Origin: Candidatus Poribacteria bacterium
GTDB taxonomy: Bacteria; Poribacteria; WGA-4E; PCPOR2b
NCBI GenBank assembly: GCA_965208675.1
Contig: OZ242351.1
Coordinates: forward strand, 2,528,001-2,592,000
Direction: 5' to 3'
DNA length: 64,000 nucleotides
Shown here: positions 8,904 through 20,246 of the stretch, piece after piece
How the letters are laid out: the number at the start of each line of letters is the position of its first letter
How positions within the stretch are numbered: the first letter of the stretch is position 1
Notes under the pieces: model-generated
The model's database searches: none
Told to the model about the DNA's origin: nothing
Seen by the model: only the letters and a program-made list of their open reading frames with translations
Made by a program: the position numbers and the translations under genes

Positions 8904-11105
8904 ATGCATAGCATGCAAGCAGAATTGGACGATAAGGCACTTGTACAAAAAGCGAAACAAGGAGATTGCCGCGCTTTCGGGGAGTTGGTGCGATGTTACC
9001 AACATACTGTCATGCGAACCGCACGCTCGTTGACAAAAAACGAAGAAGCGGCGCAAGATGTCGCGCAAGAGGCGTTTGAAAGAGCATACAAGTATCTGGA
9101 TTGCTTCAAGCCAGAAAGGCCATTTGTCAACTGGCTGTTAACAATTACGAAAAATACCGCCAAGAGTTGGTTGGCACGGGAACACAAAGCGAACGGGAGA
9201 TTTGTGTCGTTGCAGGAGACGGGGGACGCCGTTTTAGATCAGCGGACATACGAGATCTACTCAGCTCAGACAATCCAACAACAGGTTCGAGAGGCGATTT
9301 CTGAACTTTCCCCCGCGAATCGAACGGTGGTTCACCTTTACTACATTTGCGGGTATTCCTATAAAGAGATAAGCCATCAGCTTGAGATTCCCACAAGCAC
9401 GGTTCGTAGTCGGCTTCAAGAATCCAGAAAGCAACTGAGAGAGGAGTTTGTTAGCATGGTGACTGCATTACGATTGCAAAAGACGTTGACTAAGAAGGAT
9501 GGTCTGATAGGCGATACAATCACCGCAATTTTTGAAGACAGCAAAGGAAATATGTGGTTCGGTACGACCAATGGGGTTAGCCGCTATGATGGCAAGGCCT
9601 TCCAGAATTTCACGCAGATCGATGGGTTAGCGTTGGATACCGTTGGCGCAATTCTTGAAGATAGCCGCGGTACGCTCTGGTTCGGCACGGGGCGGTGGAA
9701 CGTTGAGGGAAAGGGGGTCAGCCGCTATGACGGAAAGACCTTCCAAAATTTCACCACAGCGGACGGCCTAGCTGACAACACGGTAAAGGACATATTTGAG
9801 GATAAGGAGGGACACCTCTGGTTTGCGACACACGGCGGCGTGAGTCGTTACGATGGCCATAACTTTTACAACGTTAAGGACGGATTTGCACACAGCGCCG
9901 ATTGGAACTCTAACAACGGTGTTGATGCGATTGTGCAAGACGCTGATGGTAACCTCTGGTTTGGGGGCTACGGCGGCATCAGTTGTTACAATGGAGAGAT
10001 GTTTGAGTATCTCACAACCGATGATGGGCTGCAAAGCGGCTGGGTGACCGACCTTCTGTTCGATCAGCAGGGCAATCTCTGGATTACCCGCGCCGGCGGC
10101 GGAGGCTTGCTCGCATGCCTCGATATGAAGTTTAACCACCATATTGACCGTGGCAACCCAATATCAAAGGATATGCGGACTTCCATGGAAAAAAACGGCA
10201 TTGCCCTCTCACATAAGGCAAAGATCTGGTCGCAGGAAGAAGGCCGCAAAGGGCTAGTTCGGGATGGAAAGCTGTTCGATATTGAACCGAAATTCCAAAC
10301 GGAATTCGATAAAAATATCATTTCCGTCGAATTACGGGACGCTTTTGGAAGGAATGAATTTCCACTTTCTGATCCGGAGTTTCTTTTTCGCCTCGATCTG
10401 AAACGCCAGTGTGACTTAGACAGCAGTAATTCGTCATTCCCAAAAAACCTGCGGCAAGAGTTTGAAAAGAAACTCAAGCGCTCATTACTAAAGGATACGG
10501 AGATTTTAACCCAGGAGAGTGGTAGCCTATGGCTGATGACCGAGAGGGAAAACCATTCAAATGGGTGTTATGGCGGAGATACTTTCACCGTCAGAATAGA
10601 AAAGGAAAGGCTAAATGTCTACCGACAGAGCGTCTCCGTGCACCCAACGGCAGATGACCAATGGCGCATCAGTGACAACGGAGATCGAATCAACAATTGT
10701 CCCCGGCTCCGAGAATACTTTGTTGTCAAGGAACAGAATCGACTCGACGTATACCAAAATCAGTACGAGGTCATAAAAGGAAATAATCATCTATTAATCA
10801 TGGGGCGCGGCAGCGGGATTAGCCGGTACGATGGCAAAAACTTGGTGAATTTTCCGTCTCATGAGGGTATTCCGATGGATATAACCGAAAGCGTCACGCA
10901 GGACCGGAAAGGAAACCTTTGGTTTACAAGCCGTGACGGCGTCAGTGTCTATGACGGGAAAACTTTCCACAACTTTACGACAGGCGACGGCCTGCCGCAT
11001 AATAATGTGTCAGCGGTGCTTGAGGACAGACACGGCACGCTCTGGTTCGCCACGGACGGGGGTGTGGGTTTGGGCGTCTATGTGTCCGTCAACGACTCGA
11101 GATGA
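8904..11105 (+). CDS. ECF sigma factor fused to a two-component-regulator-type beta-propeller
   Basis: N-terminal sigma2 (AQDVAQEAF, FVNWL) and sigma4 (SYKEIS..TVRSRL); repeated D-x-x-G-x-LWF..GVSRYDG..F blades. Confidence 0.9.
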   Translation: MHSMQAELDDKALVQKAKQGDCRAFGELVRCYQHTVMRTARSLTKNEEAAQDVAQEAFERAYKYLDCFKPERPFVNWLLTITKNTAKSWLAREHKANGRFVSLQETGDAVLDQRTYEIYSAQTIQQQVREAISELSPANRTVVHLYYICGYSYKEISHQLEIPTSTVRSRLQESRKQLREEFVSMVTALRLQKTLTKKDGLIGDTITAIFEDSKGNMWFGTTNGVSRYDGKAFQNFTQIDGLALDTVGAILEDSRGTLWFGTGRWNVEGKGVSRYDGKTFQNFTTADGLADNTVKDIFEDKEGHLWFATHGGVSRYDGHNFYNVKDGFAHSADWNSNNGVDAIVQDADGNLWFGGYGGISCYNGEMFEYLTTDDGLQSGWVTDLLFDQQGNLWITRAGGGGLLACLDMKFNHHIDRGNPISKDMRTSMEKNGIALSHKAKIWSQEEGRKGLVRDGKLFDIEPKFQTEFDKNIISVELRDAFGRNEFPLSDPEFLFRLDLKRQCDLDSSNSSFPKNLRQEFEKKLKRSLLKDTEILTQESGSLWLMTERENHSNGCYGGDTFTVRIEKERLNVYRQSVSVHPTADDQWRISDNGDRINNCPRLREYFVVKEQNRLDVYQNQYEVIKGNNHLLIMGRGSGISRYDGKNLVNFPSHEGIPMDITESVTQDRKGNLWFTSRDGVSVYDGKTFHNFTTGDGLPHNNVSAVLEDRHGTLWFATDGGVGLGVYVSVNDSR

Positions 11106-11124
11106 CTTTATACTACCAACACTA

Positions 11125-11140
11125 GGTTCTGTTGACATTT
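11125..11140. mobile_element. Lone terminal inverted repeat of the GGTTCTGTTGACATTT MITE family
   Basis: CTAGGTTCTGTTGACATTT is identical to the element ends at 41734 and 58960; no partner end visible nearby. Confidence 0.7.
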
Positions 11141-11222
11141 CAACGTAACCAGATAAGCGTGGAGACAAAACTCAGAAATCCAAGATAGCGGGCAGCGAGT
11201 TTCTCGAAACGAGAGAAGATAC

Positions 11223-11516
11223 GACGGAATAGGGATTTTCCACCTGCTCAACGGGGACAAGAAACTTCCGACAGAAAAAGTGCCTGATGGCATCGATCCT
11301 GAAGCATGGAACAGTCAAGGAAGCGACGAACACCAGAAGGCACTTGACGCACTAACCACGGTCTGGGGTATATTGCCCGGTCAAACTGGACAAATTAAGT
11401 ACGATTTCAATCAGGGACAGCGTTTTAACCTGTGCGCTACTGGCGATCAATGGGGTGGTACAGAGACCATAAACGCTTTTCATGCTAAGATTTCTGTAAA
11501 AAGGAAATTGAAATGA
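11223..11516 (+). pseudogene. 5'-truncated remnant encoding the C-terminal accessory domain found on the SelN-like paralogues
   Basis: Open frame GIFHLLNGDKKLP..WGILPGQTGQIKYDFNQGQRFNL..INAFHAKISV aligns with the C-terminus of 14694-16232 and of 16764-17258; ATGA overlap with the next gene. Confidence 0.7.
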
Positions 11517-12646
11517 GAACTTCACCAAACAAAATCAAGCTTAATCTCGACAGTAATGCAGAAGTTTCTGTTAAAGGCTTTATCGCTCCGATTGAATACA
11601 CGCAATACAACTTCCATGTTGATTGGGAGGCGTTGGCAAATCTACGGGTTGCTGAGCCAGAAAAGCAGCATTCTGCATCGGTTTTTCAATCTTTTCTGCC
11701 TCCAGAACCGGTTACGGTCGGTGAATGCTGGCAAATCGATGAAGCAGGCGCGCTGGAAATACTAAAACAACTTCACCCGAATCCGAGTTACGATAATGAT
11801 GGTGATTCTTATGGATTGTGGGCGTGTTTGCGCGCTTACAATGATGCGTTCGCTGAAATCGTGTTTCGCATCCATGCACAATTTGCTTTAAATGGCGGCT
11901 TGTTCACACCCTCGCAGTTTGCCGGGAGTCTAGTTGTCGACCGAATCGAAGATAGGGTTGCCCACTTCAAGATGCATGTACCCGAAGGCGTACTGAACTT
12001 CGATGTCTGCTGGGGCGAATATATCGACATCGGCTTTTGCCCGCAAATGGAACTGCATGCTGGGAGGCAAGACGTTGTATTCGGGGCTGAATTTGCTGAA
12101 GCCATCACCCAAGACGAAGCGGCGCACGTTCTAATACTGCGTTTCTACAAGTCCCAGCAAATTCATTGGGTATCGCTGGAAGAAGCGTTGAAAATGGCAC
12201 CGGTGCAACAGCAACCGATTCATGCCATTTCGATTGATGGGCCGCTGGCTGACGAGTCGTGCTGAGGGAGCGGCAAATGCCTGAGGGCAGGTGCTCTCTC
12301 ACACGACCGGGTCATCAAATTCTTGAACGAAAAATTCATCAACACTTGGGCAACAAATGCCGAATTAGGGCGTCATCGTAGCTTGCGAGACCCTATCGCT
12401 AAGAGACGCAAGCGCGAATCCAAGACGTTCGACACCTCCCACCCGTTGGCGCAAGCAATCTTGAAGGGCGGGGAGACAAGTTCACCGGTGGATTGTATGG
12501 TTATATCGCCCGACTTTGAACTGAAAGGGCAACTTCCGCTCAATGAATTCCTTGAGAACACCCGAAGTAAGGGCATTCGCCAAGAGGAGAGTTACCTAAC
12601 GTTTCTCGTGCAATCGTTAGAAGGGAAACAGCCGGGATTGGAGTAA
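11513..12646 (+). CDS. selN: Selenoprotein N-like protein, copy 1 (377 aa; in-frame TGA 12263-12265 read as Sec251)
   Basis: ORFs 11513-12265 and 12323-12646 are in one frame with no other stop; the join reads GPLADESC-U-GSGKCLRAGALSHDRVIKFLNEKFINTW; FRIHAQF, FTPSQFAG and DIGFCPQMEL match animal SelN motifs as recalled. Confidence 0.88.
12263..12301 (+). promoter_or_regulatory. Putative bacterial SECIS hairpin, copy 1
   Basis: TGAGGGAGC/GCTCTCTCA lower stem, TGCC/GGCA upper stem, TGAG loop after a 16-nt spacer from the UGA. Confidence 0.7.
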
Positions 12647-12692
12647 TTGCCAATACCGGCTTTGAGCGAACCTCGTGTGTGGTATAGGACAA

Positions 12693-12835
12693 TTACGGAC
12701 ACCCGCGACTGAACATCAGGATTACAACGTGCGCTAACGATTGGTATCCCAGCCGGCAACGCCAAGCGAGGAGGTTCTTTACGCTTGTACGATAGCGACA
12801 TCGGAATCGCCACAGGGAGCGGAGAACGTAGCTAA
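12693..12835 (+). pseudogene. Decayed C-terminal accessory domain of SelN-like copy 1
   Basis: Pieces LRTPATEHQDYNV and ALTIGIPAGNAKRGGSLRLYDSDIGIATGSGER match FRAPTPDCQDFTV and TLAIDIRVGGAELRGSFYLYDTDVEIPTGRGER in 16764-17258; internal deletion, frameshift and stop. Confidence 0.7.
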
Positions 12836-13038
12836 GACTCCTTTACACGCAGGTTTGCAGTACCGATTCAGTTGCATGAAGGGTAGTTACCAGGTAGGGA
12901 TTAGTAAGTCTAGATATGCCAATCCGGACCAGTCTTTCACCCTACACGTTTACACCCGCAATTGGAAAATTTTTTGGCTGAATAGTCAAATCAGATTTTG
13001 AGGAGTTCGGGTTTTGCCTTGCAATGCCCAAAATATAG

Positions 13039-14196
13039 ATGAAAACTTTCAAAAACAGAATCGCCGTCAATCTTGACGACACAGCAGAAGTGTCCGTGAA
13101 CGGTTTCATCGCGCCGGTTGAGTACTCTGCTGGAGATTTCCATAAGAGGTGGGACGCATTGGCGAATCTAAGGGGCGCTGAGCCAGAGATGCAGTATTCT
13201 GCGTCAGTATTTCGTGCGTTTCTCCCGTCGGGAGCGGTTTCGGTTGGTGAAGTCTGGCGTATTGAGGAAGCGGGGGCACTGGCGTTGTTGAGGCAACTTC
13301 ACCCTAATCCACATCTGGATTTGCACCATGATGCAGGAGACTCCTGTGGATTGTGGGCATGCCTGCGTGCATATAACAATGAACTTGCCCATGTTGTGTT
13401 CCGCATTCATGCAGAATTTGCGTTGACGGACGGCTGGTTCACACCCTCCCAATTTGCCGGGCATCTCGTTATCGATCGAAATGAAGACAAGATTGTGTTT
13501 TTCCAGATGCGCGTACCTGAAGGTATAATGAACTTCGATGCTAATTGGCAAACGACGGAAGAAGGATGGAGACCAGATACGATAATTACCGATACCGGCT
13601 TCTGCCCGCAAATGGAATTACGTGCCGGTATTGAACCCGGTGTGCAGAATCTTGAATTCATAGAAGCTATTACGGAAGAAGAAGCGGCGCACAAGCTGAT
13701 ACTGTGCTTTTACGAATCGGCGCAAATTCATTGGGTATCGCTGGAAGAAGCCTTGAAAACCGCAGCGGTGCAACAGAAGCCGATTCACGCCCTTTCCGTA
13801 GATGGGCCGCTGGCTGACGAGTCGTGCTGAGGCAGCGGCAAACTCCTGAGGGCAGTTGCTTTCTCACACGACCGGGTCATCAAATTCTTGAACGAGAATT
13901 TCATCAACACTTGGGCAACCAATGCCGAATTAGGGCGTAAACCGCAATTACGAGTTCCTATTGCCAAGAGACGCGAGCGCGAATCCAAGACCTTTGACAC
14001 AACGTCCCCCTTGGTACAAGCAATCATGAAGGGCTGGAAGAAAGATTCACCGGTGGATTGTTTGGTTATATCGCCCACCTTTGAACTGAAAGGGAAACTT
14101 CCACTCAATGAATTTACCAGCAACGCCTTGGATGGTGGGAGAACGGCGGCGGAAAACTACCGACTATTTCTAATGGAATCCTTAGAACCTGTTTGA
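13039..14196 (+). CDS. selN: Selenoprotein N-like protein, copy 2 (TGA 13828-13830 read as Sec264); 3' end interrupted at 14184 by a composite transposon
   Basis: ORFs 13039-13830 and 13888-14196 are in one frame; GPLADESC-U-GSGKLLRAVAFSHDRVIKFLNENFINTW; the last codons come from the MITE. Confidence 0.85.
13828..13866 (+). promoter_or_regulatory. Putative bacterial SECIS hairpin, copy 2
   Basis: TGAGGCAGC/GCTTTCTCA lower stem (one mismatch), AACT-CC/GG-c-AGTT upper stem, TGAG loop at the same offset as copy 1. Confidence 0.65.
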
Positions 14197-14313
14197 AAAG
14201 TAACTGGCGGAGCCGTTGTTTGAATATTTGAGCGTCATAATCATCGGATTTTCAAGGCATTTACCCCAAAATGACATCGCCCGATGACGGATTTGGACTT
14301 TTCAAACAGGCTC
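14185..14313 (+). mobile_element. 129-bp MITE, left copy
   Basis: TIRs GAACCTGTTTGAAAAGT / ACTTTTCAAACAGGCTC; flanks TTA and TAA; no transposase. Confidence 0.88.
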
Positions 14314-14693
14314 TAAAGCAATGCACGTATCTCTGAGAAATTTCTCGCTTAATCGCGTAATTTCCGTGAAAAGTGCATCCGAAACTGTGTTGCGGTAAAA
14401 GCTGCATAATAGTCTTCTCAACGGCATTTATACGGACAATACACGTTGCGCAAACATCCATGACAGCGAGAACAAAGATTACGCCGCCATCCATGCATTA
14501 ATCCCTCAATACATGGTTGCAGCGGTTTTTAAAATGTCGTATTATGCGTTAATGGTGACAAATGTCAACTGGTAATTGCTAACATCTACTATGGACAATG
14601 AAAATAGCAGGAAAATATCCGACGCGAGAGTTTCTGTGACCTGACGGTACCGCAAAAAGTTTGATGCAACCCACATTTCATTAGGAGAATTAA

Positions 14694-16232
14694 ATGAGAA
14701 TGGATTTAAATAACGTGCCTCAGTATTCGCGGAGCGTGCAGGTAGAAGCACACTGGGAACCGATTGCGGATTCTACATTTAATCTGCACAAAGAAATCCC
14801 AGAACACGCTGAGTTGTTCGATTTATCTCCAGACTACCCGTTCAAAAAATATGAGTCAGACGCTTTCAAAGCCTTCTTTCCCTCATCATCCGTAGCAGTG
14901 GGAGATGTATGGCAGCTTGATTCGGAGGGAGTTGTTCTGTTCCTTCGCCAATTCCACGCCGGAGCGACGACGAATCTACATCATGGCACGGAAGGTGCCT
15001 TTGCGTGCTTACGCGCCCTTTCGGCGGAATATGCGGAAATTACTTTCCGAATTCATGCGGATTTCGCGTTGTCGAGTATCGCTTATGAAGAATGGACGCG
15101 TGCGAACTCGATGAAAGAGGATGAAGGCAAAGCCCGATTTATTGCATCGCAATTCGCGGGAAAACTAGTCGTTAATCTGATGGATAGGACGGTTCAAGCG
15201 TTTTCACTAGCGTTGCCGCCCCGCAATAGCAACATTGACATCAACGCCTATGGTTGTGCCGATATGGTTTTTGTTCCGCGCATGCAACTCCTCGCCATCG
15301 GCGCCGATGACCATGGTGAAATTACGTGGGACGATTCCATCACTGAAGAAGAGGCGCGCAGGGCGATGGAGTTGAAATTCTATAAGTTCGCTGAGATCGA
15401 ATGGCGGCCGGTTGAAGAAGCGGTCGAACTTGCAAAAAAAACGCGCCGTCCGATCCATGCAATCCTTGTCTGGGGGGCACTGGACGACGAATCTTGCTGA
15501 GCGAACGGCAAACGATTGAGGGCGGGTCCGCTCTCCAATTCAGAAGTGATAAAGACGCTCAATGAGAAGTTTGTAAATACTTGGGTGTTCCTAAGAGAGT
15601 TGCCGGAACTAATACGCGGCGTTAGAGGGGAAGGTGCAAGCCGCGTCGCGGCAAAACTACAAAAACATTATTCCCATTCGGTTGATATATTGGCGCTGAC
15701 CTCAGAGGCAGAAGTGCTGGCGCATCATCCGGAGATGGCACTTCCCTACAGGAACAGGACACAAGCCTATTTAAGGCTGCTTAATCGTTCTCTAGAGGCT
15801 TTTGAAGCAAGGTATTTCTCAGAATTAGGAGCAAGGCCCATCAGTTTGGGGAAAAAACTCAAGGAGGTTTTGCATGTTTTTCGAGCATCCGAAACGCCGG
15901 ATTACACGATCGTTGACATTGACACAACCTCTTTTGAACACGACGGGATACTCTACATTGAGATACAGGTCGGTGGGGGCGAGGCGGCAGGGACGTTTGA
16001 ATTGTTCGATGGTGACACGGAACTTGTTACAGATGAATCTCCTGATGAAGCACTGGCTGGAGCGTGGAATGTCCCTCCCGGTGGAACAGGTCATATCATT
16101 CACAACTTCAAACGAGGGCAGCGTTTTAAGTTGAGGGCTAATGGGAGTAGGTCAAGCAAGGAGGGGTGCATCAACGCTTTTAGTGCGTATATTTCTGTCG
16201 TGCCGGAGTCTGAAGAATACGGGGAGTGGTGA
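14694..16232 (+). CDS. selN: Selenoprotein N-like protein, copy 3 (512 aa; TGA 15498-15500 read as Sec269) with intact C-terminal accessory domain
   Basis: ORFs 14694-15500 and 15516-16232 are in one frame; HAILVWGALDDESC-U-ANGKRLRAGPLSNSEVIKTLNEKFVNTW against recalled human [22 protein letters not shown]; AGGAG RBS. Confidence 0.9.
15498..15533 (+). promoter_or_regulatory. Putative bacterial SECIS hairpin, copy 3
   Basis: GAGCGAAC/GTCCGCTC lower stem (7 of 8 pairs), weak CGAT/GGCG upper stem, TGAG loop at the same offset. Confidence 0.55.
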
Positions 16233-16239
16233 CGCTTAG

Positions 16240-16634
16240 CTAGACCTCAACACGGACAAAAGCGAGATACGCACCCGATACAAGAACAACGACAAACAGC
16301 GCTAACAACAGTAAATCTATCGCCGTGGCGTTGAAATCACGGCTGAGATTGAGTGTATCTTCAAACTTTGGATTCGACTCCGGACTGACGCGTTTCTGCG
16401 ACATTCCCTCGCCAACGCCTATGATATTAAGACTTTCCGGGTCAGCCCTATCCGTGTCAAGGACAAATTCGCGGAATTGGCGGGCGTAACCTTGGACATT
16501 TTCCAAGAATTGCAAATGGCGATTAAATCCGGTTGCCGCAAACGATTCCAGAAGGTGCTGGACAAGCACTACTGGGGAAACACGGGTTGTTGGGCGGTCG
16601 GTTAACGGAAATTTCACCGGCGGAATAGGTCTTA
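16240..16634 (-). pseudogene. C-terminal fragment of a membrane protein (ABC permease-like), cut by the MITE
   Basis: TRVSPVVLVQHLLESFAATG..terminal TM helix ending YLAFVRVEV; the predicted start lies inside the MITE. Confidence 0.55.
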
Positions 16635-16763
16635 GAGCCTGTTTGAAAAGTCCAAATCCGTAATCGGGCGATGTCATTTTGGGGTAAATGCCTTGAAAAT
16701 CCGATGATTATGACGCTCAAATATTCAAACAACGGCTCCGCCAGTTACTTTTCAAACAGGTTC
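16635..16763 (-). mobile_element. 129-bp MITE, right copy (inverted)
   Basis: Reverse complement of 14185-14313 with one substitution seen. Confidence 0.88.
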
Positions 16764-17258
16764 TTAGAGGGGAAACGTCCCGGGTTGAGTCGAGATAATT
16801 CTTTCGGATATTTATTTGGCGAAGTAGATGATAGCGCCGTGGAACCGCTCTTAAGTGATTTAAACGTTGTCCTCAACAATGCGCAACCCTCGTTGGAAGT
16901 GTTGGATGTTTTTCGGGCTCCAACACCGGATTGTCAGGATTTCACTGTCGTAAAAATTGATGCCACGGCGTTTAAAACCGGTGGGACGCTAGCAATTGAT
17001 ATCCGAGTCGGCGGCGCCGAACTGAGAGGTTCTTTCTATTTATACGATACCGATGTTGAAATCCCTACAGGGCGCGGGGAGCGTTACTATCACTCGTTCG
17101 CCAATGCGACGGATATGCCTCCCAGGGGAGCAGCGCAAATCCAGTATCCTTTCTATCGACCTCAGGTGTTCAAGCTGGTAGTTGCCGCGGAGCCGGAAAA
17201 TGGGGACGGGAGTGTCAACGCCTTTCATGCGAGAATTTCTGTAGAGCAGGCAAATTGA
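16764..17258 (+). pseudogene. Displaced 3' part of SelN-like copy 2 (linker plus accessory domain)
   Basis: Begins LEGKRPGL (copy 1 has LEGKQPGL) exactly at the TTA duplication; homologous to the C-terminus of copy 3. Confidence 0.85.
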
Positions 17259-17892
17259 ACTTGCGAGACAGGTGGTTGAGTCATCCACCATTAAGTTACC
17301 TGATGTCGGGAAAAGTCTCCGGTTTTTGCGTGATTTTAGATACGGTGGAGATGAGCCACGGAGCGCGGATTTGGTACGTTTGCGGCGACCGTATTACACG
17401 CTTGATTGGTTTCTCTGAGGGCGGAGCAAGTGGATTCCCATTGCACCGTTCAACACCGGTAGCAGCGCATCGAAGAATGTCCACACCAGCGAACGGACAT
17501 CTGCGCTGACCGCGGTAAAATCTTTTGCAGCCTTGCTGATGCCGAACCAGTTCCAGAAAAAGAGTATGGCAGCGAACACGAACCCGTAGAACAGCGCGTT
17601 GGCTGCCGCAGGGCAGACGACGGCAGAAGGATCTCGAAATCGGTCAGAGGCGTAAGCGCACTTCCGCAATCGCCAATAGGAACCGAGTCTTTATTTACTA
17701 GTAAAGGGGATTGATTTAGCTGTTGCTTCTGTTACGACTTTATGGTTTCAGTATTGCACCAAATGTTGTGGTAGTTCGGCTTGCTACCCAATCGACTTCT
17801 TACCGGCATACGCAGCAGTTTAAATCAAAAACAGAGTATAGTCTGCAGCAGTCATTGGATGGGGCGAAGTAACTCCGTTTCTAAATGACCGA

Positions 17893-20246
17893 TCATTCTA
17901 CGCCGTTGAGTTCTGGCAGTTTATTCGCATCAATCGCCACACGGAAACCGGTAAAGGACTGGCGTACGTCGGACGGACTCAATCCATTTCTTACGATGCT
18001 GTAGACACGCGCATCCATGCAGCGTACGTCGTCCGTATAATCCCGCCATGAACTACCTCGCACGACTCTACCGCGCAAACCGTTGACGCCGATACCCCAG
18101 CCGTCAACCCATTCACGGACATTCCCAGCCATATCGAGGACGCCATAGGCACTCGCCCCTGCAGGCGCGCTGCCGACATTTCGTGTACCGAATTCCACCA
18201 TTTGGGTTTCAAACAACATACTGCCTCCCGGTTTCTGCTCAACAGTGTAGCCGCGAAACACTCCATATTTTCCCAATTCTGCTTCCACTTCTGCTTCAGT
18301 TCTCCTGCCACTTAGGGTTGCCTTCGGCAAATAATTGCCCCAAGGATACGTCCTTCCATCAGTTCCTCGCGCCGCTTTTTCCCATTCCAACTCCGTCGGA
18401 AGCCGAAAACCTGCCCGTTGGCAGAACGCTTTAGCGTCTGCATAGTTGACTCCAACGACCGGCTGACTTGGCGCGTTGTACAGTTCATTATCCCAAAAGA
18501 CAGGCGCGGGATACCCCTTTGCGTCGATAAACCGCTTGTATTGAACGTTTGTCAACTCGTATTTGGCGATGTAAAATTCTCCTGTGAGCCGTTTCTCGTT
18601 CAATTCTCCGTAGAGAAATTCCCCAGCGGGAACGTAGACTAATTCAATCCCTTTGTGCTGTGTCTCCCTAACTTTATGCGGTTTGAGGGCGCGATCATCA
18701 TATGGAATCTGTATCCCACGCTCGTAGTCTTCGATTGAATAACGGCGGTCATTTCGTCCATCATACACCCACGTATTCGACGGCAGATTCAGGCTACGAA
18801 CGTCGAACAGCTCCTTCGGTAGATTGGCATTAATCTGGAAGTCTTCAAACGTAATCCGGATTTCCTCAATAACGTCATCGGGTTGTTCGGAGAGTCGAAG
18901 CGTTTCAACAGCGGTGCGAGGAAACCAACTTCCATCGGCAAACTGGCGATAGGTTATATCTAAGGTAACAAAATTGTTACTATGGCGAGTCTCCAAGCGA
19001 CGAGGACGATAGCCTTGTTCAGGGTCAATCCAAAACCGGCGTTCGCTATGATCAGTGGTTTGGACAACGTAACACCAACTATCCCCAATCTTTTCGTGCC
19101 CGATTACGTCCGTGCCGTGATGCTTAATATACTCACCAATACGAACACGCCTGTTGCCGATATACAAGTTCATCCCCCACGTAAAGCGAATCCAACTGGC
19201 AAGCGATAAGGTATACTTAGGCTCATGATGATCCAAATTAACGCTCACGCCTTGGTTGGGCTCAAACAGAATGTCCTTTTCACCATCATAAATCTGCTGT
19301 TTGCTGATATGCGGTTCGCCTTGCCACTGTAAGATGTCGTCTTGCCGAAAACGATTCTTAGCGAACGCGAAAAAATATCGGTCTGGGGCAAGAAACTGAT
19401 TCTTGATAACCAAATAACCCATCCCATTTCTGATTTTCTCACCGTTTTTCCGAATCTCCGCGACAAGCTCACCAAGCGTCGGAAGTTCGTCAGCATCAAC
19501 TTGAAGCGGCGTCTTATCGTCCTGCGCAATGGCGCCACCAACCAAGTTGACATTCCGATAAGAATTCGGTTCTTGTGAGAATTGGTTGTCACCCGTACCG
19601 ATTCCCAAGCTGACCATACAGAGAATCGTCAACCCGGCAAGCGACATTGAAAGCGGGGCGCTCCAACTTGGCTTTGTCGAAGGTTGATGGGGTATTATCC
19701 CTTCCTGTTGGATGGATTTCAGCAAATCGAACGTGAAAGTCCCTTTGAGCCGGTGTTCAGGCTTTTTGCGCGCGCAGATGTACCGAAATACCGCCCTATC
19801 TCCTTGCACGTCAATCCGTGCATGTAATGCAGCGTCAAAACTTGTTGATCGCTCTCTGACAGCTCCGCAATTACACTCCGTACTGTGCGTTTCAGTTCAT
19901 CGTCCTGATAAGACTCCGCCGCCTTCTCTTCCAGCGCTTGGGGCCTTACCCTGTCAATCGGCACCTCATGTTTTGCGCTTCTCGACATGCGCCGCATCCT
20001 ATCGCGGCAACAGTTCACCGTAATAGTGTAAAGCCAGCCAGAGAAATTATAAGGTCGTCGAAACGCGCCCAAGTTTTGATAGGCTTTAAGAAAGACCTCC
20101 TGCGTTACGTCTTCGGCATCGGTGTGATTGCCAAGTTTGCGGCGGGCGATTCCGTATACGGCAGCTTTGTGGCGATCAACAAGAACACCGAAAGCGGTAT
20201 CGTCCCCCGCAAGGGATTCCCGGACAAGCATTTCATCTCGATTCAC
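17893..20246 (-). pseudogene. Frameshifted ECF sigma - TM - LolA-like - formylglycine-generating enzyme (SUMF1/FGE) domain fusion
   Basis: ECF frame from GTG 20246 (GGAGG RBS) breaks inside sigma4 at GTSARA; the other frame continues ARKKPEHRL.., a TM helix, WIDPEQGY, then RLPTELEWEKAARG and DMAGNVREW. Confidence 0.75.

What the first reader, a model, noticed from the sequence alone, without database searches (positions are those of the whole stretch)
11513..17258. Hidden tandem array of bacterial selenoprotein N homologues read through UGA
Seen: three paralogues all appear to stop at DESC-TGA, and in each the same frame continues without a stop into a conserved region (U-GSGKCLR, U-GSGKLLR, U-ANGKRLR, then LNExFxNTW), giving 377, 385 and 512 aa proteins. 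Other genes here use TGA as a normal stop. Known, from memory: animal SelN (SELENON, ER redox/Ca2+ protein linked to myopathy) has [26 protein letters not shown] plus FRIHAEF, PAQFTG and DIGYIPQMEL, all matched here. I recall a Poribacteria SelN orthologue being mentioned before, so the family may not be new. Inference: an expanded, diversifying vicinal Cys-Sec redox system (SCUG and SCUA variants), with no signal or TM anchor, that standard gene callers split into six hypothetical ORFs.
Basis: partly seen in the sequence, partly recalled or inferred. Interest (0 to 1): 0.93.

Follow-up and report, generated by a model that had tools for sequence, protein, structure and literature searches.

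The report
Bacterial selenoprotein N homologues, UGA-decoded
Three neighbouring genes of a sponge-symbiont-type bacterium encode relatives of the human muscle-disease protein selenoprotein N, each very probably carrying a selenocysteine at an in-frame UGA, and they belong to a large bacterial family that gene callers cut in two.

Summary
Genes at 11513-12646, 13039-14196 and 14694-16232 each stay open across one TGA after ..DESC (377, 385 and 512 aa). Both sides are homologous to vertebrate selenoprotein N. Natural homologues carry Cys at the TGA position. A hairpin starts 17 nt after the UGA in all 66 related loci I examined. dN/dS is equal on both sides (0.21 and 0.20). The genome has tRNA-Sec, selA, selB and a Sec-containing selD.

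The models show an N-terminal beta-rich domain, then a thioredoxin-like domain with Cys-Sec before its first helix. Some members add a C-terminal beta-sandwich. A selenenylsulfide oxidoreductase role is inferred, not shown.

Refinements:
- The genome holds five such genes.
- 131 of 176 genomes of its phylum (apparently Poribacteria) have the family, often about 10 copies and often in tandem. In a Planctomycetota sample it was 6 of 101.
- g1 and g2 are recent duplicates. g3 belongs to another subfamily and sits on a 2.58-kb segment bounded by two inverted 136-nt MITE-like repeats. That segment severed the C-terminal domain of g2.

A database cluster name already hints at the homology. I found no paper or curated model describing a bacterial family.

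The parts
11513..12646 (+). g1: SelN-like selenoprotein gene, 377 aa, Sec codon TGA at 12263-12265 (U251, motif ESC-U-GSGK). It has no C-terminal beta domain. The stop at 12644-12646 is followed by a decayed remnant of that domain.
   Evidence: tblastn; translation.
12283..12298 (+). SECIS-like hairpin of g1: GAGGGC-AGGU-GCUCUC, 6 bp, starting 17 nt after the UGA.
   Evidence: Alignment A8 and pair counts: 98.5% of cells paired in 22 distinct sequences. Own fold.
13039..14196 (+). g2: SelN-like selenoprotein gene, 385 aa, Sec codon TGA at 13828-13830 (U264, ESC-U-GSGK). Its C-terminal domain was cut off by the insertion that starts at 14185.
   Evidence: dN/dS against the paralogue in L067 is 0.21 upstream and 0.20 downstream of the TGA.
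13848..13863 (+). SECIS-like hairpin of g2: GAGGGC-AGUU-GCUUUC, 6 bp, two of them G-U. It is the weakest of the three.
14694..16232 (+). g3: SelN-like selenoprotein gene of a second subfamily, 512 aa, Sec codon TGA at 15498-15500 (U269, ESC-U-ANGK), with an intact C-terminal beta domain.
   Evidence: The representatives search gives E 3.7e-22 to a vertebrate SELENON. Tree.
15518..15535 (+). SECIS-like hairpin of g3: GAGGGCG-GGUC-CGCUCUC, 7 bp, starting 17 nt after the UGA.
   Evidence: Alignment A5 and pair counts: 94.7% of cells paired in 46 sequences, 0 of 500 shuffles as high.
16764..17258 (+). Severed C-terminal domain of the g2-type gene. It lies inside ORF 16671-17258, whose first ~30 codons are not homologous.
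   Evidence: tblastn: residues 383-557 of the L067 paralogue match 16764-17288 at 88%. Junction sequences.
14181..14316 (+). Left copy of a 136-nt MITE-like repeat with 17-nt terminal inverted repeats. It forms the left border of the 2.58-kb insertion (14185-16763).
16632..16767 (-). Right copy of the same repeat in inverted orientation, 134 of 136 bases identical to the left copy.
11223..11504 (+). Remnant: only the tail of a C-terminal beta domain (..INAFHAKISV), just upstream of g1.
   Evidence: tblastn; translation.
12647..12865 (+). Decayed remnant of g1's C-terminal domain, in frame but with several stops.

Best explanation
The three genes encode cytoplasmic bacterial homologues of selenoprotein N. 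In each, one in-frame UGA is decoded as selenocysteine by the bacterial route: SelB with Sec-tRNA(Sec) recognises a short hairpin with a G-containing tetraloop that starts 17 nt after the UGA, inside the coding sequence. Sec sits directly after a Cys (C-U) at the start of the first helix of a thioredoxin-like domain, which follows a conserved beta-rich N-terminal domain. The most likely activity (inferred, about 60%) is a thiol/selenol oxidoreductase that cycles through a vicinal Cys-Sec selenenylsulfide, as proposed for animal SELENON and known for the GCUG end of thioredoxin reductase. A C-terminal beta-sandwich, present in g3 and severed from g2, would be a binding module. What is shown: the open frames, the homology, Cys forms at the U position, the hairpin, the Sec machinery and the purifying selection downstream of the UGA. 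What is inferred: actual Sec insertion, redox chemistry, substrates and cytoplasmic location.
For: (1) The frames are open across one TGA.
(2) Homology to vertebrate SELENON. g3 against P0257 gives E 3.7e-22 in a library of 1.84 billion proteins, and the best stretch 209-333 spans U269. P0257 is a wombat protein whose relatives are named Selenoprotein N, human included. In pairwise BLASTP the upstream halves give E 6e-22 to 7e-25. The downstream halves give about 2e-6 to 8e-6 and lie colinear right after the Sec site.
(3) Of 11 proteins fetched from the representatives search, 6 carry Cys at the U position.
(4) The TGA is conserved at the same codon in 46 of 46, 20 of 20 and 5 of 5 loci. In the 46 loci the open frame continues for at least 94 codons.
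(5) The hairpin is at a fixed distance. For the g3 type 94.7% of cells are paired and 0 of 500 shuffles reach this. Locus L021 keeps the stem through two compensatory pairs that change the protein from RAGPLS to RVGLLS. L023 and L025 have a different hairpin at about the same place. For the g1/g2 type 98.5% of cells are paired, and pair 24-33 is G-C 12, A-U 5, G-U 4. Synonymous sites are frozen: Arg is always AGA/AGG and Leu always CTC.
(6) dN/dS for g2 against its paralogue is 0.21 upstream and 0.20 downstream of the TGA.
(7) Machinery: tRNA-Sec at 77.5 bits with anticodon tca, selA at 595.6 bits, selB at 367.5 bits, and selD at 375.8 bits carrying its own in-frame TGA.
(8) Fold: the full-length AF2 model has pLDDT 88.7. 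The domain model has pLDDT 86.2 and pTM 0.83, and its PDB neighbours are thioredoxin-fold proteins: Thioredox_DsbH 7tkv at E 2.6e-5, DsbH 2ju5, thioredoxin 2lst, ERp19, AGR2/3, DsbD-gamma and the UAS domain 2dlx. C263-U264 lie between strand 249-255 and helix 266-275.
(9) One relative is fused to an AhpC-TSA/Redoxin domain at E 4.5e-21.
Against: There is no direct evidence of selenium incorporation. No expression data were obtained.

Taken alone, the hairpins of g2 and g3 fold no better than shuffled sequence (z 0.16 and -0.12), and g2's stem has two G-U pairs.

Covariation is thin. Most stems are simply conserved and the sequences are related. The stem encodes LRAGPLS, which also occurs in some Cys forms (P0145, P0172), so part of the conservation may be at the protein level. 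I had no DNA of Cys forms to test whether they lack the hairpin.

selA is found in 164 of 176 genomes of the phylum, so co-occurrence with the Sec machinery does not discriminate. Six family-positive genomes showed no selA; all are MAGs 73-95% complete.

g1 and g2 have lost the C-terminal domain, and the locus carries remnants, so some copies may be decaying.

Fold matches are modest (TM 0.4-0.6). The position of C-U relative to a CxxC site was read from secondary structure, not from a superposition.
Confidence: 0.85

Rival explanations
1. The TGAs are true stops. Each locus is a split or dead gene, or two separately translated proteins: an N-terminal domain ending in ..DESC, and a downstream protein started at an internal TTG or ATG.
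For: Gene callers produce exactly these pieces, and both kinds are in public protein sets. Downstream TTG starts exist at 12323, 13888 and 15516. The locus does contain decayed fragments.
Against: The stop is always TGA at the same codon in 71 of 71 loci examined. The 19 codons between the TGA and the first possible start in g1 and g2 are conserved and homologous to Cys forms and to SELENON. dN/dS is equal on both sides. Uninterrupted Cys forms exist. A hairpin is conserved and the Sec machinery is complete.
Confidence: 0.04
2. The UGA is read through, but as a standard amino acid (Cys, Trp or Gly by near-cognate or suppressor tRNA) and not as selenocysteine.
For: Natural relatives carry Cys, Trp or Gly at this position, so the fold tolerates them.
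Against: A dedicated tRNA-Sec, selA, selB and selD are present. A SelB-type hairpin lies at a fixed distance. TGA ends other genes in the window, so there is no general reassignment. The homologous residue of animal SELENON is Sec, as stated in the passage of PMC12839072 read.
Confidence: 0.03
3. They are real selenoproteins, but the C-U site is not a catalytic oxidoreductase centre. It would serve as a redox- or metal/selenium-sensing switch or a binding site, for example as the sensor part of signalling proteins.
For: Relatives are fused to ECF sigma factor regions followed by a hydrophobic segment (P0127 in a Sec-type truncated form, P0156 in Cys form). A sigma-70/Reg_prop fusion gene lies directly upstream in the window. 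Many close relatives carry Gly or Trp instead of Sec yet are otherwise conserved. Animal SELENON is described as a sensor as well as a redox protein (abstract and passage of PMC12839072).
Against: The fold is thioredoxin-like with the pair at the usual active-site place. One relative is fused to a peroxiredoxin-type domain. Use of Sec usually marks catalytic redox sites (general knowledge, recalled).
Confidence: 0.2

Closest known systems
Animal selenoprotein N (SELENON / SelN / SEPN1)
   Same: Homologous over the beta-rich domain and the thioredoxin-like domain on both sides of the Sec site. Same Ser-Cys-Sec-Gly motif in g1 and g2. Same downstream LNExFxxxW block. Sec is encoded by UGA.
   Different: The bacterial proteins have no EF-hand and no N-terminal membrane anchor (alignment; Pfam none). 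They use an in-ORF bacterial hairpin rather than a 3'UTR SECIS. Some have a C-terminal beta-sandwich that SELENON lacks. They are multi-copy, up to about 10-12 matches per genome. g3 has SCUA. Vertebrate sequences form a separate long branch.
Thioredoxin-fold proteins of the DsbH / Thioredoxin_7 / UAS kind (e.g. PDB 7tkv, 2ju5, 3ira, 2dlx; also ERp19, AGR2)
   Same: These are the best structural neighbours of the domain that carries C-U. The Atlas lists the same families as structural neighbours of vertebrate SELENON.
   Different: No detectable sequence match: Pfam, NCBIfam and PDB sequence searches were empty. The active pair is vicinal C-U rather than CxxC. TM-scores are only 0.4-0.6.
C-terminal GCUG redox centre of animal thioredoxin reductase
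   Same: Adjacent Cys-Sec that can form a selenenylsulfide. The comparison is made in the passage of PMC12839072 read.
   Different: In thioredoxin reductase the motif sits on a flexible C-terminal tail of a flavoenzyme. Here it is inside a thioredoxin-like domain, and there is no homology.
Bacterial selenoprotein genes decoded through an in-ORF SECIS (fdhF type)
   Same: A UGA followed at short, fixed distance by a hairpin with G in the apical loop, together with selA, selB, selD and tRNA-Sec. The genome's own selD shows a similar small hairpin (GAUCC-GGG-GGAUC) 12 nt after its UGA.
   Different: The protein family is absent from the text of the 2026 review of prokaryotic selenoproteomes that I searched and from NCBIfam. 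The SECIS consensus parameters are recalled; no SECIS program was run.

Membership tests
Selenoprotein N (SELENON) family | Sequence homology over the conserved core, on both sides of the Sec site | tested here: met
   E 3.7e-22, 95.4 bits, to P0257; upstream halves E 6e-22 to 7e-25, downstream halves about 2e-6 to 8e-6, colinear. P0257's relatives are named Selenoprotein N.
Selenoprotein N (SELENON) family | Sec in an SCUG motif at the homologous position | tested here: met
   g1 and g2 have ESC-U-GSGK and g3 has ESC-U-ANGK. They align with vertebrate DDQSC-[U omitted in the database records]-SGRTLR. SCUG at residue 458 of human SelN is stated in PMC12839072 (passage).
Selenoprotein N (SELENON) family | EF-hand calcium-binding domain | tested here: not met
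   Pfam finds nothing in the three proteins. In alignment A2 the bacterial proteins start after the EF-hand region of P0257.
Selenoprotein N (SELENON) family | N-terminal membrane anchor with ER-lumenal location | tested here: not met
   The window proteins begin directly with the conserved core. Relatives have cleavable-looking signal peptides or lipoprotein signals. This was judged by eye; no predictor was run.
Selenoprotein N (SELENON) family | Eukaryotic SECIS in the 3'UTR | tested here: not met
   A hairpin inside the ORF, 17 nt after the UGA, is conserved instead. I did not scan the 3' flanks for eukaryotic SECIS models.
Bacterial Sec-decoded selenoprotein | In-frame UGA conserved among orthologues, with Cys in some homologues | tested here: met
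   TGA in 46 of 46, 20 of 20 and 5 of 5 loci. Cys forms P0134, P0145, P0153, P0156, P0172 and P0205.
Bacterial Sec-decoded selenoprotein | Stem-loop immediately downstream of the UGA | tested here: met
   The weak points are thin covariation and a stem that overlaps conserved codons.
Bacterial Sec-decoded selenoprotein | selA, selB, selD and tRNA-Sec in the genome | tested here: met
   All are over the curated cut-offs, and selA, selB and tRNA-Sec are adjacent at C1:2131409-2134883.
Bacterial Sec-decoded selenoprotein | Selenium actually incorporated into the protein | not testable with these tools
   This needs 75Se labelling or mass spectrometry.
Thioredoxin-fold oxidoreductase | Thioredoxin fold | tested here: met
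   Domain model with pLDDT 86.2 and pTM 0.83. All five PDB matches with E <= 0.001, and most of the rest listed, are thioredoxin-fold proteins.
Thioredoxin-fold oxidoreductase | Redox pair at the N-terminus of helix 1 after strand 1 | tested here: inconclusive
   DSSP on the models puts C-U between a strand and a helix. No residue-level superposition on a CxxC protein was available.
Thioredoxin-fold oxidoreductase | Measured redox activity | not testable with these tools
   This needs an enzyme assay.

The most novel reading that the evidence does not exclude
SELENON is the animal branch of a large, mainly bacterial selenoprotein superfamily, with hundreds of clusters at 50% identity. Its core, a beta-rich domain plus a thioredoxin-like domain with a vicinal Cys-Sec, is a general redox repair or sensing module. 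Poribacteria have amplified it to ten or more Sec-containing copies per genome, partly through mobile elements. In some bacteria it is wired directly to ECF sigma factors as a redox-sensing input. Natural Cys forms would then give the first easily expressed model for the unsolved biochemistry of a human myopathy protein.
Probability: 0.35. Interest if true: 0.8.

Novelty: new variant of a known kind. Interest (0 to 1): 0.66.

Why it matters
SELENON is a human disease gene (SEPN1-related myopathies). The sequence search of solved structures returned no relative, and the catalytic mechanism is not settled as far as I recall. A large bacterial family with natural Cys variants and compact soluble forms offers tractable material for structure and enzymology.

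For microbiology, this is a selenoprotein family that standard annotation cuts in two at every copy. Protein catalogues of Poribacteria, and to a lesser degree of Planctomycetota, therefore hold many paired 'hypothetical' fragments. Ten or more Sec-containing paralogues of one family in a genome would be an unusually heavy investment in selenium. It raises the question of what redox task sponge symbionts need it for. The family is missing from Pfam, from NCBIfam and from the text of the 2026 review of prokaryotic selenoproteomes that I searched.

Tried and rejected
- Pfam, NCBIfam and PDB sequence searches of the three proteins found nothing.
- A diverse 14-sequence alignment (A3) was too divergent for the search for related loci, so I used a narrower one (A4). 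Its pattern, [LI]FG[TAS]LDDES, came from TGA-truncated fragments. The 46 loci are therefore biased towards Sec forms and say nothing about how common Cys forms are.
- Single-sequence folds of the region after the UGA were significant only for g1 (z -2.2). For g2 and g3 they were not. The comparative alignments carried the argument instead.
- The selA survey of the phylum was meant as a co-occurrence test. It does not discriminate, because selA is found in 164 of 176 genomes.
- The whole-protein PDB fold search mostly reported the C-terminal beta-sandwich. A second model of the thioredoxin-like part alone was needed. I obtained no informative match for the N-terminal beta-rich domain.
- Sequencing runs: no RNA holder was listed.
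- Contigs of four runs laid on 11000-17500 include joints 14180/14187 to 16763/16770 that skip the 2.58-kb insertion. At 90% likeness these may come from the uninterrupted paralogue or from relatives. I do not count them as evidence for excision or polymorphism.
- Literature searches found no paper describing a bacterial SelN. Terms tried: 'selenoprotein N'+Poribacteria, SelN+Poribacteria, SELENON/bacterial homolog/thioredoxin/UAS, 'selenoprotein N'/bacteria/HGT/sponge, '-like' name variants, selenoproteome/bacterial SECIS/SelN, Poribacteria+selenoprotein and 'selenoprotein N'+Planctomycet.
- The searched library lacks most subscription journals.
- Table S9 of PMC4807772 lists selenoprotein candidates of two Planctomycetes and may bear on novelty, but supplements are closed.
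- In the tree I labelled P0019, P0037 and P0124 as Poribacteria by similarity only, so I do not use the group statistics of that call. No invertebrate or sponge SelN was available, so the direction of any transfer between animals and bacteria is untested.

Full report
**The observation**

Under the standard code, three + strand ORFs end at TGA straight after ..ADESC or ..DDESC (11513-12265, 13039-13830, 14694-15500). With TGA read as U, each frame continues without another stop. The results are 11513-12646 (377 aa, U251), 13039-14196 (385 aa, U264) and 14694-16232 (512 aa, U269). I call them g1, g2 and g3. The residues after U are GSGKCLR, GSGKLLR and ANGKRLR, followed by LNE(K/N)F(I/V)NTW. 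TGA is also an ordinary stop here: g2, g3 and the upstream gene all end in TGA.

**Homology to selenoprotein N**

Pfam, NCBIfam and PDB sequence searches found nothing. A search of 1.84 billion cluster representatives with g3 found 541 clusters at E <= 1e-3, 303 at <= 1e-10 and 59 at <= 1e-30.

- By my hand count, 87 of the 150 listed hits end exactly at query residue 268, the Cys before U, and at their own last residue. These are gene models stopped at the same TGA.
- Ten listed hits cross the site.
- One of them, P0257 (588 aa, E 3.7e-22, best stretch 209-333 of g3), is a wombat 'EF-hand domain-containing protein'. Its closest relatives are named Selenoprotein N in many vertebrates, including human. 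The Atlas places it in a 'selenoprotein N' cluster.

The multiple alignment shows colinear similarity along the whole bacterial core. Pairwise BLASTP of the separate halves gives E 6e-22 to 7e-25 upstream. Downstream it gives about 2e-6 to 8e-6, directly adjacent to the Sec site. The vertebrate database records omit the U itself. That human SelN has SCUG with Sec at 458 is stated in a passage of PMC12839072.

**Evidence that the UGA is decoded as Sec**

1. Cys forms. Of 11 proteins fetched from the representatives search, six have Cys at the U position: ESCCGSGK, EACCATGK and ESCCPSGK types. One has Trp, one Ala and one Phe. Of six fetched members of a full-length subgroup, five carry C-G and one S-G.
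2. Conservation of the codon. All 46 loci found in species-representative genomes with a pattern ending before the site have TGA there, followed by at least 94 open codons. So do 20 of 20 g2-type loci fetched from the phylum and all five loci of the own genome.
3. RNA structure. In the g3 type, the 7-bp stem with a GGUC loop (GAGAGCG-GGUC-CGCUCUC) starts 17 nt after the UGA. Of all cells, 94.7% are paired in 46 sequences, and 0 of 500 shuffles reach that. Slid controls give 34-73%.
   - A Fimbriiglobus locus (L021) keeps the stem by two compensatory pairs, at the cost of two amino-acid changes.
   - Two Planctomycetota loci (L023, L025) with a different peptide have a different hairpin at about the same place.
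   - In the g1/g2 type a 6-bp stem with an AGKU loop is paired in 98.5% of cells. One pair varies as G-C 12, A-U 5, G-U 4.
   - Synonymous sites in the stem are frozen, while those before it vary.
4. Selection. dN/dS between g2 and its 92%-identical paralogue is 0.21 upstream and 0.20 downstream of the TGA.
5. Machinery. The single-contig genome is 96.4% complete. It has tRNA-Sec (77.5 bits against a cut-off of 47; anticodon tca), with selB and selA adjacent, and a selD that itself contains an in-frame TGA followed by a small G-looped hairpin.

Weak points:
- There are no protein or RNA data.
- The g2 and g3 hairpins are not exceptional when folded alone.
- Covariation is sparse.
- The stem overlaps conserved codons.
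- selA is nearly universal in the phylum (164 of 176 genomes), so co-occurrence proves little.

**Architecture and likely mechanism**

An AlphaFold2 model of the uninterrupted own-genome paralogue (546 aa, 35-row alignment) has pLDDT 88.7 and pTM 0.71. It shows:
- a beta-rich N-terminal domain (about residues 1-200);
- an alpha/beta domain (about 214-385), in which C263-U264 lie between strand 249-255 and helix 266-275;
- a disordered linker (393-412);
- a C-terminal beta-sandwich (414-544).

A separate model of the alpha/beta domain of g2 has pLDDT 86.2 and pTM 0.83. Its PDB neighbours are thioredoxin-fold proteins: Thioredox_DsbH protein 7tkv (E 2.6e-5), DsbH 2ju5, a thioredoxin, ERp19, AGR2/3, DsbD-gamma and a UAS domain. 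TM-scores are modest at 0.4-0.6. The C-terminal sandwich resembles PliG and the pre-peptidase/collagen-binding domains. It is present in g3 only.

From fold and motif I infer a thiol/selenol oxidoreductase working through a vicinal selenenylsulfide, at about 60%. A sensing role is the main functional rival. Domain fusions give some support to each reading. One Poribacteria relative carries an AhpC-TSA/Redoxin domain. Two other relatives are fused to ECF sigma factor regions.

The window copies start directly with the core and have no hydrophobic N-terminus. Many relatives, including Sec-type ones, have signal or lipoprotein-like leaders (judged by eye).

**The locus is not a simple tandem array**

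The own genome has five family members. Comparison with the uninterrupted paralogue shows that g2 is a truncated gene. Residues 2-384 match 13039-14187 and residues 383-557 match 16764-17288.

The 2.58 kb between them carries g3 and a small minus-strand ORF. It is bounded by two inverted copies of a 136-nt element (134 of 136 bases identical) with 17-nt terminal inverted repeats. The triplet TTA is duplicated at the two outer junctions. The element has 12 matches in the genome at 74-100% identity. So g3 appears to have arrived as cargo of a composite, MITE-bounded segment that severed g2's C-terminal domain. That domain survives as ORF 16671-17258.

g1 has a stop followed by a decayed remnant of the same domain, and another remnant lies just upstream of g1. 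The fifth paralogue is interrupted by an IS4/5-family transposase gene.

In a quick maximum-likelihood tree, g1 and g2 are sisters (99). They sit in a clade (100) next to Cys forms. g3 groups with other Poribacteria loci (99). Vertebrate SELENON forms its own long branch (100). The backbone is weak.

**Distribution**

- In the window's phylum, 131 of 176 species genomes have matches: three families at 10 of 28, 10 of 11 and 110 of 112, and the other eight families at 0.
Tandem runs of five or six copies occur elsewhere. Every listed match has one TGA.
- Named relatives and loci are Candidatus Poribacteria. DNA holders of the stretch are mostly labelled sponge metagenomes.
- In an even sample of 101 Planctomycetota genomes, 6 have one copy each. 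The three Planctomycetota genomes I checked have selA.

**Novelty**

The family link is hinted at in public data: an Atlas cluster 'Putative selenoprotein n 1 (Fragment)' has Poribacteria as its commonest phylum. I also recall, unverified, a mention of a Poribacteria homologue in a SelN review.

I found no paper in the searchable library that describes bacterial SelN. Term searches of the main text of the 2026 review of prokaryotic selenoproteomes (PMC13188914) and of the deep-Sep paper (PMC12013277) do not find it.

I rate it a new variant of a known kind: the SelN core in bacteria, decoded by a bacterial in-ORF hairpin, without an EF-hand or membrane anchor, sometimes with an extra C-terminal domain, and massively amplified in one phylum.

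Noticed in passing
window 14181-14316 and 16632-16767: Two inverted copies (134 of 136 bases identical) of a 136-nt MITE-like element with 17-nt terminal inverted repeats bound a 2.58-kb segment carrying g3. TTA is duplicated at the outer junctions. The genome has 12 matches to the element at 74-100% identity.
   Followed up: partly
window 16671-17258: This ORF is mostly the severed C-terminal beta-sandwich domain of the g2-type gene (88% identical to the paralogue's domain). Whether it is still translated is unknown.
   Followed up: partly
window 11223-11504 and 12647-12865: Two decayed remnants of the same C-terminal domain, one upstream of g1 and one after g1's stop. They point to repeated duplication and decay at this locus.
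   Followed up: partly
L068 2486-3277 (own genome C1:902500-906000): The fifth family member (g3 type, Sec codon intact) is interrupted in its C-terminal part by an IS4/5-family transposase gene (DDE_Tnp_1 at E 4.9e-25, DUF4096 at E 7.2e-25).
   Followed up: yes
window 8904-11105: The gene directly upstream encodes an ECF-type sigma-70 (regions 2 and 4) fused to Reg_prop propeller repeats. Elsewhere ECF sigma regions are fused directly to the SelN-like domain (P0127, P0156). A regulatory link is possible but untested.
   Followed up: no
window 17893-19809 (- strand): A 638-aa protein with a C-terminal FGE-sulfatase (SUMF1-like) domain, E 9.4e-34.
   Followed up: no
window 16240-16677 (- strand): A 145-aa ORF inside the inserted segment with a weak, partial DUF3526 match (29.7 bits against a cut-off of 25). 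It may be a gene fragment.
   Followed up: no
L046 3602-4135: A Poribacteria g3-type SelN-like gene continues into an AhpC-TSA/Redoxin domain (E 4.5e-21). This is a natural fusion of the family to a peroxiredoxin-type module.
   Followed up: partly
L018 (own genome C1:4649539-4650462, - strand): The genome's selD is itself a selenoprotein gene (..VKCAG-U-ASKLDPGD..), with a small hairpin GAUCC-GGG-GGAUC 12 nt after the UGA.
   Followed up: partly
P0019, P0023, P0030, P0032, P0037, P0041 (relatives, 533-606 aa): A subgroup with a signal peptide and C-terminal domain carries Gly at the Sec position (C-G, once S-G), yet is otherwise about 52% identical to g2. These are presumably non-redox derivatives.
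   Followed up: no
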